Position numbers and translations under genes: made by a program. Under the pieces are notes generated by a model, which was given only the letters and a program-made list of their open reading frames with translations, made no database searches and had not been told where the DNA came from. Shown in pieces: positions 1 through 38,318 of a stretch of DNA of 64,000 bases (positions are counted from its first letter, which is position 1; each line of letters opens with the position of its first letter). This stretch comes from Eledone cirrhosa (lineage: Eukaryota). The stretch covers positions 7,130,001 through 7,194,000 of the forward strand of contig OZ024762.1 of assembly GCA_964016885.1 (NCBI GenBank), in the 5' to 3' direction.

Positions 1-361
1 CCCCAGTCCTATCATCTCATTTTTACAGCTGAGTAAACTGGAGCAATGTGAAATAAAGTGTCTTGCTCAAGGAAACAACACATCACCCGGTTTGAGAATT
101 GAACTCACAACCTTTCGATTGTAAGGCCAATGCTCTAACACAGTGAGTGGTGGGTGCTTTTTTGCCATGGCACCTACACGACCACTTTGCAGTGGAATGA
201 TAGGGACCCCAGTCCTATCATCTCATTTTTACAGCTGAGTAAACTGGAGCAATGTGAAATAAAGTGTCTTGCTCAAGGAAACAACACATCACCCGGTTTG
301 AGAATTGAACTCACAACCTTTCGATTGTAAGGCCAATGCTCTAACCACTAAGCCATGTGTC
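1..361 (-). mobile_element. two tandem partial copies of CORE-type tRNA SINE (family A)
   Basis: 1-138 is repeated at 207-345; reverse-complemented A/B boxes and core. Confidence 0.8.
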
Positions 362-8083: not shown

Positions 8084-8135
<52 letters not shown>

Positions 8136-8141
8136 AATATG

Positions 8142-8428
8142 TATCATCATCATCATCATCATCAACGTTTAACGTCCGTGTTCCACGCTTGCATGGGTTT
8201 GGACGGGGGTATTCCCACTTGAGGCAAGAGTGATTGTCTTGCTCGCATAGGACTGTCTGGCAGGTTTTCTACAGTTGGATGCCCTTCCTAACACCAACCA
8301 CATTTACAGTGTGGGTCTGGGAGGTTTTTACCGTGTTGCCTACACGGCCACATTACAGCGTGGACTGTGTGTTTTTTTGTCGTGACACCTACACGATCTC
8401 GTTTGTTTCGGCCTGGATGGCGCGGCAC

Positions 8429-8431
<3 letters not shown>
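8142..8431 (-). mobile_element. RTE 3' UTR fragment, nearly identical to the young LINE
   Basis: Spurious ORFs 8234..8461 and 14821..15033 give the same peptide over ~65 aa; (ATC)n tail; sits in (TA)n. Confidence 0.9.
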
Positions 8432-8464
<33 letters not shown>

Positions 8465-8612
8465 TGTATATATATATATGCAAAAGTTTTATTTAAAATT
8501 GTTGGGTTACAACGAGTAAATATTTTATAACTGATATAAAGCACTCAACAAGTTTTTTGGAGTAGATATACGATATTAAACAAATGGAAACTATATTTAT
8601 AAAACCATATTT

Positions 8613-8676
8613 ATTTCATTATACATATTTCGGGGATACCATATTAAAAATATGGCATGCCTTCGTCAGATAAAAT
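8613..8676 (-). ncRNA. minimal type I hammerhead ribozyme motif
   Basis: Reverse complement: ATTTTAT-CTGACGA-stem II-GAAA-TATGTA-TA-ATGAAAT. Confidence 0.68.
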
Positions 8677-8756
8677 ATGGCATGCCTTCGTCAGATAAAA
8701 TACAATATATAATAAAATACAATATAAAATTATTTATAAAACTGTTTATATATTGT

Positions 8757-8820
8757 ATTTTATCTGACGAAGGCATGCCATATTTTTAATATGGTATCCC
8801 CGAAATATGTATAATGAAAT
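8757..8820 (+). ncRNA. minimal type I hammerhead ribozyme motif
   Basis: Stem I ATTTTAT/ATGAAAT; CTGACGA 8764-8770; stem II GGCATGCCATATT/AATATGGTATCCC; GAAA 8802-8805; TATGTA; UA cleavage site at 8812-8813. Confidence 0.7.
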
Positions 8821-8910
8821 AAATGTGGTTTTATAAATATAGTTTCCATTTGTTTAATATCGTATATATATATATATATATATATACATATATGTATATA
8901 TATAAATATG

Positions 8911-8944
<34 letters not shown>

Positions 8945-8945
8945 A

Positions 8946-8986
<41 letters not shown>

Positions 8987-8993
8987 ATATTAA

Positions 8994-9284
8994 TAACGGT
9001 TGAAGTTCACTGGATAGTCCAGCGAACTTCAACCGTTAAGGTTGTTTTTTTCTGCGGTGTGTCAATATTTATTTATAAAACAAATCTGTATTTTATCTGA
9101 TGAAAGCACACCATAATTTGCCTTGGTTGCCCTTGAAATATATATAATAAAATAATTATGGTTTTATAAATATAGTTTCCATTTATTAATATATTGAATA
9201 TTTACTCCAGTTACCTGTTGACTGCTTTATATCAGTTATAAAATGTTTGAGCTTGTTGAATCCCAACAAATTAAATATAACCTC

Positions 9285-9288
<4 letters not shown>
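8994..9288 (+). mobile_element. hammerhead-bearing Penelope-like/retrozyme element (subfamily 1) with short 5' hairpin
   Basis: 21-bp inverted 5' arm (8994-9038), hammerhead at 9089-9154, 3' end ..ataacctctgca|(TA)n. Confidence 0.72.
9089..9154 (+). ncRNA. minimal type I hammerhead ribozyme motif
   Basis: TATTTTAT-CTGATGA(9097)-stem II-GAAA(9135)-TATATA-TA-ATAAAATA. Confidence 0.7.
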
Positions 9289-9319
<31 letters not shown>

Positions 9320-9377: not shown

Positions 9378-10492
9378 AATGATAAAGACATAACAACATC
9401 ACTAGTGCTCACGTCATGATAAAGACATAACAACAGCCCGAGTGATGATGTTGCGATAAAGACATAACAACAGCCCTAGTACTGATGTCATTGTAAAGAC
9501 ATAACAACATCACTAGTGATGATGTTGGGATAAAGACATAACAACATCACTAGTGCTGATGTTGGGATAAAGACATAACAACAGCCCTAGTGCTGATGTC
9601 ATGATGAAGACATAACATCATCACTAATGATAATGACATGATAAAGACATAACAACAGCCGTAGTGATGATGTCATGATAAAACATAACAACATCGCTAG
9701 TACTGATGTCATGATGCAGACATAACAACAGGTGTAGTGATGATGTCATGATAGAGACATAACAACATAACTAGTGATGCTGTCATGATAGAGACATAAC
9801 AACATAACTAGTGATGCTGTCATGATAGAGACATAACAACATAACTAGTGCTGATGTCATGATAGAGACATAACAACATAACTAGTGATGCTGTCATGAT
9901 AGAGACATAACAACATAACTAGTGATGCTGTCATGTTACAGACATAACAACAGGTGTAGTGATGATGTCATGATAGAGACATAACAACATAACTAGTGAT
10001 GCTGTCATGATAGAGACATAACAACATAACTAGTGCTGATGTCATGATAGAGACATAACAACAGGTGTAGTGATGCTGTCATGATAGAGACATAACAACA
10101 TAACTAGTGATGCTGTCATGATAGAGACATAACAACAGGTGTAGTGATGCTGTCATGATAGAGACATAACAACATAACTAGTGATGCTGTCATGATAGAG
10201 ACATAACAACAGGTGTAGTGATGCTGTCATGATAGAGACATAACAACATAACTAGTGATGATGTCATGATAGAGACATAACAACAGGTGTAGTGATGCTG
10301 TCATGATAGAGACATAACAACAGGTGTAGTGATGCTGTCATGATAGAGACATAACAACATAACTAGTGATGCTGTCATGATAGAGACATAACAACATAAC
10401 TAGTGATGATGTCATGATAGAGACATAACAACAGGTGTAGTGATGCTGTCATGATAGAGACATAACAACATAACTAGTGATGATGTCATGAT
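9378..10492. repeat. 37-bp minisatellite, ~30 copies
   Basis: Unit catgatagagacataacaacataactagtgatgctgt with an alternating variant. Confidence 0.92.
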
Positions 10493-20066: not shown

Positions 20067-20465
20067 GTGAGTTGCATAATGTAGAGTGCTTTTCTTACTA
20101 TTACATCATGGTTTACTAATCGGAATCACCAGTTCTACTCACTGGTAAACCATACACACACACACATGCACACACACGCACACACACACACACATACACA
20201 CACACACATATATATATCATCATCATCACCTTCTAACGTCCATATTTCCATGCTAACATGAGTTAGACGTTGGCCCTGTTGGGAGACAAGCCATGTCAGA
20301 TGACCATGTCTTGCTCATATATATATATATATGCAGAGGTTATATTTAATTTGTTGGAATTCAACAAACTTAAAAGTTTTATAACTGATATAAAGCACTC
20401 AACAGTTTGGTGGAGTAAATATTCATTATATTAATAAATGGAAACTATATTTATAAAACCATAAT

Positions 20466-20531
20466 TATTTTATTATATATATTTCAAGGGCAACCAAGGC
20501 AACTTTTGGTGCGCTTTCATCAGATAAAATA
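20466..20531 (-). ncRNA. minimal type I hammerhead ribozyme motif
   Basis: Reverse complement of the 20647 motif. Confidence 0.72.
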
Positions 20532-20646
20532 CAAAATTTGTTTTATAAATGTTGACATACCCGCAGAACAACAACCTATCCAGCGAACCTTCAACCGTCA
20601 AGGTTGTTCTTCTGCGGGTATGTCAACATTTATAAAACAAATTTTG

Positions 20647-20711
20647 TATTTTATCTGATGAAAGCGCACCAAAAGTTGCTTGGTTGCCCTTGAAATATAT
20701 ATAATAAAATA
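20647..20711 (+). ncRNA. minimal type I hammerhead ribozyme motif
   Basis: Perfect 8-bp stem I TATTTTAT/ATAAAATA; CTGATGA 20655-20661; stem II AAGCGCACCAA/TTGGTTGCCCTT; GAAA 20692-20695; palindromic TATATA; AUA triplet. Confidence 0.75.
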
Positions 20712-20753
20712 ATTATGGTTTTATAAATATAGTTTCCATTTATTAATATATTG

Positions 20754-28301: not shown

Positions 28302-28529
28302 GTAGGTGCTCAATTATATATATATATATATCATCATCATCATCACCATTTTTACGTCCGTTCTTCCACGCTAGCATGGGTTAGATGGTTTGTTGTATCC
28401 CAACAATTTAAATAGAACTTTTACATATATATATATATATTCCTAACGATCGACTTTCGTCAAATCTGACCGAGGAAACAGTGTTTCCAATTGCTAATAC
28501 TATCTATCGGTCGCAACTCCAGGTAGAAG

Positions 28530-37020: not shown

Positions 37021-37311
37021 AACCTTCATCGGTCCCTAATATTTTGAGTGTAACCACACCTTCTCCTACTGTAATTACTATAATATGGAACCCTCCCCTC
37101 TATCCAAACGGACCATTAATTAGTTACAAGCTGATGATTAGCTATGTTAACCAACGAAACGTCACGCGGGAAGTGTCCAAGCATACACACTCTTGGTCGT
37201 TCAGCCAGCTACGACATTCCAAGAAGTACACCATCAGTGTATCAAGCTGGAATGCCTTTGGAGAAGGGCCAGCCGACAGCCGTGTCATTACAACACCAGA
37301 CTTAATGCTAG
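37021..37311 (+). CDS. ROS1: ROS1-like exon, second FN3 domain (KPSSVPNIL...WNPPLYPNGPLISY...NAFGEGPADS)
   Basis: tttcag acceptor, G|gtaacg donor; phase 1-1. Canonical FN3 motifs. Confidence 0.92.
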
Positions 37312-37771: not shown

Positions 37772-38318
37772 AAAATTAAATTAAGGGTGTCAGAGAGACA
37801 TGTGCCATATCCACTGTAGAATATGCTCCAATGAAATATATACAAGGAAGATTAATCAATTTAAAAGGTATCTATATTTAAAGGTCTAGTTAAACTTTAA
37901 TTAGTTACCTACCTAGCTATGTGTGCTTACACACTTTTACAAATTATTCCCTGTGATTGTTTCATATGTTTATTTTAGATATATATATATGTCAATCAAT
38001 TTCTAGTTGATATATATATGTAGAAGTTATATTTAATTTGTTGGGATTCCAACAAACTTAAAAGTTTATAACTGATATAGAGCACTCAACAGAACATACT
38101 GAAAAAATAGCACAGTACCTTCGAAATATATATAATAAAACATATATTTTGATTATGTGAATGTCTTCATTTATTAATATTCTGAATAATATTAATAACT
38201 CCAGAAAACTTCTTTGTAGAGTGCTTTTAATCTATTGTAAAACTATATTCATTGAGTAATCAATGAACCATATTAATTTTTGGTTATATGTATATATATA
38301 TATATTACATACACATAC

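What the first reader, a model, noticed from the sequence alone, without database searches (positions are those of the whole stretch)
8479..9288. Two subfamilies side by side show covariation of the hammerhead stem II
Seen: the 8757 and 9089/20647 motifs share flanks (..tggttttataaatatagtttccattt..), core and stem I. Their stem II sequences differ greatly but both still pair (GGCATGCCATATT/AATATGGTATCCC vs AAGCGCACCAA/TTGGTTGCCCTT). The variable core position changes (CTGACGA vs CTGATGA), and stem I and loop III changes are G-U compatible. Inference: selection on RNA structure during amplification. Three ribozyme motifs lie within 550 nt, two on the + strand ~330 nt apart, which could allow dimeric cleavage in cis.
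Basis: partly seen in the sequence, partly recalled or inferred. Interest (0 to 1): 0.75.

Follow-up and report, generated by a model that had tools for sequence, protein, structure and literature searches.

The report
Covarying hammerheads of Penelope-like retroelements
These are the ends of two related families of a known kind of jumping gene, each carrying a predicted self-cutting RNA whose stems changed in step while one C-C mismatch stayed fixed; their side-by-side position is likely an accident of both landing in the same TA repeat.

Summary
The motifs are real and at the stated places. They are type I hammerhead motifs in the terminal repeat of Hydra-clade Penelope-like retroelements. 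The window holds three short, mostly fold-back insertions (families A and B) in (TA)n; full-length relatives encode RT plus a C-terminal GIY-YIG endonuclease. The genome has 75,990 pattern matches (control 110). Covariation holds: 93% of helix II cells pair across 23 shared types, against 71-77% in a tree-aware neutral null, with three double changes between A and B. Position 4 of helix II is an unpaired C·C in 70,251 of 75,990. One test was not significant (shared vs private changes, p=0.17). The 333-nt dimer idea is not supported: the junction is unique among 40 scored hits, the cis dimer lies 16-104 kcal/mol above the free fold, and the natural hammerhead pair is about 3.7 kb apart. Copies come from uncut RNA (0 of 58 junctions start at the cut). 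Element ends fall 8-9 nt before a twice-repeated 5'UTR hairpin. Cleavage is untested. The scan already reported this family, the C·C and the twin hairpins on other DNA of this genome.

The parts
8479..8862 (.). Element 1: fold-back, 5'-truncated insertion of family A; long end at left (about 140 nt past the cut), short end at right (49 nt past the cut)
   Evidence: arms 98.3-98.7% identical to the 3' end of ORF-bearing copy L061
8612..8677 (-). Hammerhead motif, family A, long arm (C3 at 8669, H17 at 8620); a 25-nt duplication (8647-8696) lies at its 5' side
8543..8563 (-). First copy of the repeated 5'UTR hairpin in the long tail, just past the short-end position
8756..8821 (+). Hammerhead motif, family A, short arm (helix I 8756-8763/8814-8821, C3 8764, helix II 8771-8801, helix III 8805-8812, H17 8813)
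8863..8982 (.). (TA)n-type microsatellite between the two insertions; the target sequence, not part of a unit
8983..9288 (+). Element 2: family B insertion; short-end remnant and centre hairpin at 8983-9038, long arm on + ending at 9288
   Evidence: 88% to L064 3' end
9089..9154 (+). Hammerhead motif, family B (C3 9097, H17 9146); A·C at helix II position 5
9204..9223 (+). First copy of the repeated 5'UTR hairpin in the long tail of element 2
20332..20753 (.). Element 3: fold-back family B insertion, long end left, short end right
   Evidence: 95-96% to L064 3' end
20466..20531 (-). Hammerhead motif, family B, long arm (C3 20523, H17 20474)
20647..20711 (+). Hammerhead motif, family B, short arm (C3 20655, H17 20703)
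38018..38270 (.). Remnants: family B long tail on - (38018-38092) joined to a related-family arm on + that lacks the 5' core
28392..28425 (+). 34-nt remnant of a long end next to (TA)n

Best explanation
The motifs are type I hammerhead motifs in the terminal repeat of two sister families of Hydra-clade Penelope-like retroelements, and the window's three copies are short stumps in TA repeats whose helices covary, likely because the fold was under selection in the full-length source elements. [quoted passage not shown] Inferred: the element's protein nicks (TA)n on both strands and starts reverse transcription at the two hairpin-marked sites in opposite directions; early stops give the fold-back stumps. 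The RNA copied is uncut, so the ribozyme is likely slow or protein-assisted (2-bp helix III, AUA triplet, weak 10.1-11.1 pair, fixed C·C) and acts on a fraction of source transcripts, most plausibly trimming read-through RNA 188 nt before the start codon. The stumps themselves are likely inert, and the 333-nt spacing is a by-product of both families targeting the same microsatellite.
For: Linked ORF on the same strand 1.2-1.9 kb upstream of the motif; intact 741-aa ORF between 1,093-bp direct repeats in L137; 20 of 30 ATG-bearing copies have a sense motif 236-239 nt upstream; Hydra-clade motifs (vs PMC8557442 section 11). Covariation: 774 of 840 cells paired vs shuffle 622+/-7; 92.9% vs 71-77% in a tree-aware null, at most 14 of 5,000 simulations reaching it; 10 of 16 pairs with double changes in a 16-sequence alignment, 0 of 500 shuffles. 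Core letters at least 97% fixed and N7 free in 218 arms found by flanks only. 44 of 45 divergent arm pairs have one long and one short end. 0 of 58 anchored junctions start at the cut; no pile-up of 5' ends at the cut (87, of which 3 of 12 inspected are intact or near-intact motifs, vs 30 and 46 at control junctions with shorter microhomology). A protein-assisted hammerhead and two internal RT starts were shown for the anole element (PMC11167929, parts 1-2 of 4 read).
Against: Shared vs private changes did not differ significantly (15 keep/10 break vs 11/17, Fisher p=0.17). Young, expanding subfamilies carry A·C or A·A at position 1 and mismatches at position 8, so selection on helix II is loose there. 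Isolated motifs do not fold into the hammerhead at minimum energy (z -0.98 to +0.49; monomer fold 6-10 kcal/mol above ensemble). Pfam finds no domain in the L137 protein; clade assignment rests on motifs, not a tree. The 5'UTR repeat reached 0, 3, 9 and 112 of 1,000 shuffles in four copies, so one of four is not significant. The role of the cut is inferred, not shown.
Confidence: 0.88

Rival explanations
1. The two + strand motifs form a functional cis dimer that releases a 333-nt RNA, a nascent retrozyme unit.
For: Helix III palindromes of A and B can pair over 8 bp and both helix I strands can swap; the cis dimer is 9 kcal/mol better than two monomers in 8740-9170. Dimers are the proposed active form of metazoan PLE hammerheads (PMC4209133, parts 1-2 of 4 read).
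Against: Two different families in separate insertions with a TA run between; no second full-length match among 40 scored of 2,629 candidates; only 1 same-strand pair within 1 kb among the first 100 listed places, and it is again two insertions around a TA run; dimer 16 kcal/mol above the free ensemble, cross-pair probability 0.0000, and 104 kcal/mol above when the left arm is transcribed, which takes 92 of 115 possible pairs.
Confidence: 0.04
2. The motif no longer cuts; its helix II with the fixed C·C is kept as a binding site or structural signal for the element's protein, and the catalytic core persists for folding only.
For: No genomic record of cutting; 10.1-11.1 is A·C or A·A in large young subfamilies, including the one with an intact ORF; hammerhead mutants did not affect insertion in vitro in the anole element.
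Against: All catalytic core letters and the cut triplet are fixed while N7, the one free core position, varies over all four bases, the pattern expected of a catalytically selected core; the anole motif does cut when protein is added.
Confidence: 0.2
3. The apparent covariation is only shared ancestry plus transition bias or A-to-I editing, without selection on structure.
For: Many single changes are A>G or C>T and neutral transitions keep 26-42% of pairs; Fisher test not significant.
Against: Eight extra Watson-Crick pair types vs 2-3 in the tree-aware null, including transversion swaps (G-C/U-A/A-U at position 3, C-G/G-C at 8); at most 1 of 5,000 simulations reached that; the bulged base varies freely (T 30, G 4, C 3 types).
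Confidence: 0.05

Closest known systems
Hydra clade of EN+ Penelope-like elements and their hammerheads (Craig et al. 2021, PMC8557442; passages, section 11 and supplementary parts 1, 2, 52 read; includes Hydra-1_Obim from Octopus bimaculoides)
   Same: RT then C-terminal GIY-YIG, DKT, CxCx5C linker, CxxC and CxH around the conserved E and N, (TA)n target, sense hammerhead near the 3' end, inverted 5'-truncated copies.
   Different: Unit 3.7 kb vs generally under 3 kb; RWR for RWK; all 26 Hydra hammerhead rows in File S2 have C after GAAA and a GU before the cut, 3-7 bp helix II and no listed C·C at position 4, whereas these have U/AUA, a 9-14 bp helix II and the fixed C·C; the listed Hydra-1_Obim hammerhead is a different sequence; about 76,000 motifs here.
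Minimal and variant hammerheads of metazoan PLEs (Cervera and de la Pena 2014, PMC4209133; parts 1-2 of 4 read)
   Same: Type I motif in the pLTR, short palindromic helix III, long helix II, many covarying families per genome, pairs on opposite strands 100-700 bp apart, tandem pairs about 3 kb apart.
   Different: No extra base between positions 9 and 10.1 in the register that fits all families; 10.1-11.1 mostly A-U instead of the conserved G-C; fixed C·C not mentioned in the parts read.
Poseidon element PAc of Anolis carolinensis (Frangieh et al. 2024, PMC11167929; parts 1-2 of 4 and passages read)
   Same: Two internal RT start sites downstream of the hammerhead that define the tail; uncut RNA is the main template.
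   Different: Other clade; starts lie in the ORF in one AC-rich stem-loop and the tail is 30-40 nt, whereas here they lie in the 5'UTR about 90 nt apart, each before a copy of a repeated hairpin.
Metazoan non-LTR retrozymes (Li et al. 2026 preprint 10.64898/2026.07.22.740005, part 1 of 5 read; PMC7229834 seen as search listing only)
   Same: Type I hammerhead related to PLE pLTRs; a few-hundred-nt spacing between two motifs.
   Different: No tandem array of like units here; the stumps are truncated copies of a coding element.

Membership tests
Type I hammerhead ribozyme | Conserved core CUGANGA / GAA and NUH triplet, N7 free | tested here: met
   218 arms found by flanks only: every core position at least 213/218; N7 T99 G46 C40 A33; triplet AUA
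Type I hammerhead ribozyme | Helices I and II with compensatory changes | tested here: met
   (5 of 8 helix I and 5 of 6 helix II pairs with double changes)
Type I hammerhead ribozyme | Helix III | tested here: inconclusive
   2 invariant pairs plus a palindromic 4-nt loop; invariant pairs say nothing; the search pattern also fixed these letters
Type I hammerhead ribozyme | G10.1-C11.1 closing pair | tested here: not met
   of 105 types: AU 61, GU 18, GC 9, unpaired 17
Type I hammerhead ribozyme | Match to an Rfam hammerhead model | tested here: not met
   no hit at gathering score or E<=10
Type I hammerhead ribozyme | Self-cleavage at H17 | not testable with these tools
   no RNA holder listed; genomic record of cut templates absent
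Hydra-clade Penelope-like element | Single ORF, RT followed by C-terminal GIY-YIG nuclease | tested here: met
   741-aa ORF, YRDD at 354, GIY-YIG-type motif at 620-636; Pfam silent for this protein, RVT_1 hit on homologue P0008
Hydra-clade Penelope-like element | RWK motif, DKT, no GxKF | tested here: met
   RWR at 37 (conservative variant), DKT at 120, GxKF absent
Hydra-clade Penelope-like element | CxCx5C linker; CxxC and CxH around conserved E and N | tested here: met
   600-608, 698-704, 725-727; CxCx5C in 37 of 52 homologues
Hydra-clade Penelope-like element | (TA)n target, pLTR, inverted truncated copy and one-sided tail | tested here: met
Hydra-clade Penelope-like element | Length generally under 3 kb | tested here: not met
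   unit 3,724 nt, long 3'UTR; stated as a tendency in the paper
Hydra-clade Penelope-like element | Phylogenetic placement by RT tree | not tested
   reference proteins were not available as tool sequences
Non-LTR retrozyme | Tandem repeat with a hammerhead in each like unit | tested here: not met
   two unlike families separated by a TA run; junction not repeated among 40 scored hits
Naiad clade | N-terminal endonuclease, DKA, no canonical hammerhead | tested here: not met
   endonuclease is C-terminal, DKT, hammerhead present

The most novel reading that the evidence does not exclude
The pLTR is one RNA control module for a dimeric RT: two copies of a hairpin dock the two subunits and set the two start points of a two-armed insertion, while the fixed C·C in helix II is a protein-read switch that keeps the ribozyme off in template RNA and on in message RNA. 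About 76,000 copies in dozens of subfamilies would then be a natural mutational scan of a protein-gated hammerhead.
Probability: 0.3. Interest if true: 0.7.

Novelty: new variant of a known kind. Interest (0 to 1): 0.38.

Why it matters
What the hammerhead does in Penelope-like elements is still open (PMC8557442, PMC11167929). This family offers intact ORFs, a graded series of natural helix variants, an unexplained fixed mismatch and two mappable start points, so the question can be tested directly. The specific 333-nt arrangement in the window matters little.

Tried and rejected
Naiad identity: first guessed from recalled motifs, rejected on domain order. Idea that the tail is a diverged duplicate carried by single units: rejected when 20 of 30 ATG copies showed a direct upstream repeat. 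Rfam: no hammerhead model hit. Pfam: no useful hit on the family's own proteins. Thermodynamic z-scores of single motifs: not informative. Shared vs private change test: not significant. One search used a structure string one column off and is void; one search is the corrected count. Search for cut-site starts: 130 sites with both arms short, junctions scattered in the 50 listed, no enrichment. Sequencing runs: no RNA holder listed; contigs of four runs hold the family with changes at N7 and helix positions and none listed at the two C positions, but their kind is unknown and they cannot show ends. Literature searches for a C-C mismatch in hammerhead helix II (0 papers), for cephalopod hammerheads and for a repeated start signal found no description; subscription papers and figures were not searchable, and supplementary figures of PMC4209133 were not read. 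Rows dropped: 1 of 106 helix II types (L080, no helix I) before the counts.

Full report
Observation. The five hammerhead-like cores of this family in the window are at + 8764, + 9097, + 20655, - 8669 and - 20523, with the predicted cut after 8813, 9146, 20703, 8620 and 20474. The stems are less perfect than described: all five have C·C at the fourth position of helix II, family A has A·C at the first, family B a 3' bulge, and the 9097 copy A·C at the fifth. Between family A and the 20523 copy of family B, positions 2, 5 and 6 change on both sides and stay Watson-Crick, position 7 goes G-U to A-U, and position 1 goes A·C to A-U. Rfam does not recognise the motif.

What carries the motif. 8479-8862 and 20332-20753 are fold-back elements in (TA)n; 8983-9288 is a third insertion with one arm nearly lost. 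The host genome is 3.0 Gb, probably a cephalopod (inference: the only named homologues are from Argonauta hians). It holds 75,990 matches to the core pattern against 110 for the reversed control and 61,184 first-look candidates for the endonuclease region. Longer copies show an ORF on the same strand ending 1.2-1.9 kb before the motif; family B has its own related ORF (L064). L137 is intact: a 741-aa ORF between 1,093-bp direct repeats, hammerheads 3,724 nt apart. The protein has RWR, DKT, YRDD, a CxCx5C linker, a C-terminal GIY-YIG-type motif and CxxC/CxH, the features given for the Hydra clade of Penelope-like elements (PMC8557442 section 11). The assignment rests on motifs; no tree was built and Pfam is silent on this protein.

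Covariation. From 257 arms in 195 loci came 106 helix II types; one without helix I was dropped. At positions 1-3 and 5-9, 84-96% of the 105 types pair, with two or three Watson-Crick types at most positions; 774 of 840 cells pair against 622+/-7 in column shuffles and 31-49% in slid controls. Because relatedness inflates such tests, I simulated neutral change along a minimum spanning tree of the 23 types seen at two or more loci: observed 92.9% paired and 8 extra Watson-Crick types, null 71-77% and 2-3 types, reached by at most 3 of 5,000 runs (at most 14 of 5,000 with the 16 types seen at three or more loci). A 16-sequence MAFFT alignment gave 10 of 16 pairs with double changes, 0 of 500 shuffles as high. 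Against this: shared changes kept pairing 15 of 25 times and private ones 11 of 28 times, p=0.17, and large young subfamilies have mismatches at positions 1 and 8. The sample is enriched for families A and B by the way loci were fetched. In 218 arms found by flanks alone, core letters are at least 213/218 fixed while N7 takes all four bases.

The fixed mismatch. Position 4 pairs in 0 of 105 types and is C·C in 96; genome-wide 70,251 of 75,990 matches have C on both sides. Along the tree the two sites changed once, in a type seen at three loci, against a mean of 2.1 changes per other site. The Hydra hammerheads listed in File S2 of PMC8557442 lack this design and have a different helix III and triplet. 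No paper was found on it. Its function is unknown to me; a brake on cutting or a protein contact are the two readings worth testing.

How copies are made. Of 188 arms of families A, B and close kin, 96 were long (80 ending 137-143 nt past the cut) and 92 short or other (80 ending 48-51 nt past it); 44 of 45 divergent arm pairs combine one of each, and 32 of 45 have identical N7 and helix II. Twenty of 30 ATG-bearing family A copies (of 168 matches) have a sense hammerhead 236-239 nt upstream, so the tail is the 5'UTR of the next unit. Both end points lie 8-9 nt before a copy of a short hairpin whose closing pair is A-U in the first copy and G-C in the second. I predicted the second copy for family B before looking (note): 34 matches vs 0 control, and 29 of 30 fetched loci run on into the pre-ATG stretch (the first four letters were in the pattern). 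The repeat beat dinucleotide shuffles in three of four copies (0, 3, 9, 112 of 1,000). This fits the two internal RT starts shown for the anole element; the link of hairpins to start points is inferred.

Is the RNA cut? Since copying starts downstream of the ribozyme, a cut template would give copies beginning at the cut. None of 58 anchored junctions (of 60 loci) does. Arms joined to (TA)n at the cut number 87, some of them intact motifs with a longer TA loop (3 of 12 inspected), against 30 and 46 at control points with shorter microhomology; only 130 sites have both arms that short. So inserted copies come from uncut RNA, as in the anole system, where the ribozyme cut only with protein present and was dispensable for insertion in vitro. 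The invariant core still argues for catalysis in the source elements; trimming of read-through RNA 188 nt before the ATG is my preferred, unproven role. No RNA run was listed.

The 333-nt idea. The two + strand motifs belong to different families and different insertions. No other of 40 scored hits covers the junction; among the first 100 listed places one same-strand pair lies within 1 kb and is again two insertions around a TA run. The cis dimer can be drawn but is 16 kcal/mol above the free ensemble of 8740-9170 and 104 above that of 8479-9290, where the left arm takes up the right arm. The natural pair is 3.7 kb apart.

Verdict. A real, well-supported covarying hammerhead of a known class of element, with a variant design (long helix II, fixed C·C, AUA triplet) and a repeated start-point hairpin. 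I reached these readings before seeing the earlier notes, but the scan has already reported the same family with the mismatch (e1-8670794) and the paired hairpins (e1-9568615, e1-9504212) on other DNA of this genome; those notes are not independent support.

Noticed in passing
window 6244-6205 (- strand): A different, minimal hammerhead-like motif with a short helix II and a palindromic helix III ending in a UA/UU-type triplet; probably another Penelope-like family.
   Followed up: no
window 37131-37170 (+ strand): Another hammerhead-like core with a GUC triplet and weak helices, followed by a GC-richer tail.
   Followed up: no
window 8130-8430: A (CAT)n-headed dispersed repeat that recurs beside many fetched loci (L002, L012, L015); looks like an abundant SINE-type element that also targets TA runs.
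   Followed up: no
window 9380-10000: Tandem array of about 39-nt units directly right of element 2.
   Followed up: no
window 298-355 (- strand): Weak tRNA-like Rfam hit (29.2 bits), possibly a SINE head.
   Followed up: no
L061, L062, L063 near ORF residue 520: Many copies break frame at the same C-rich run just before the linker (open frames of 220-227 aa dominate), a slippage hot spot.
   Followed up: partly
L065:5484-7105, L042:202-804, L053:2028-2642: More distant Hydra-type ORF remnants (32-39% identity), so several further families are present.
   Followed up: no
L149:5100-5560: A second case of two different subfamilies facing each other across a TA run, 306 nt between same-strand motifs.
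   Followed up: yes
L186: A motif followed at once by a second core start, suggesting a very short tandem hammerhead repeat.
   Followed up: no
L229/L230: Two ATG-bearing starts head to head 134 nt apart, a palindromic arrangement of 5' ends.
   Followed up: no
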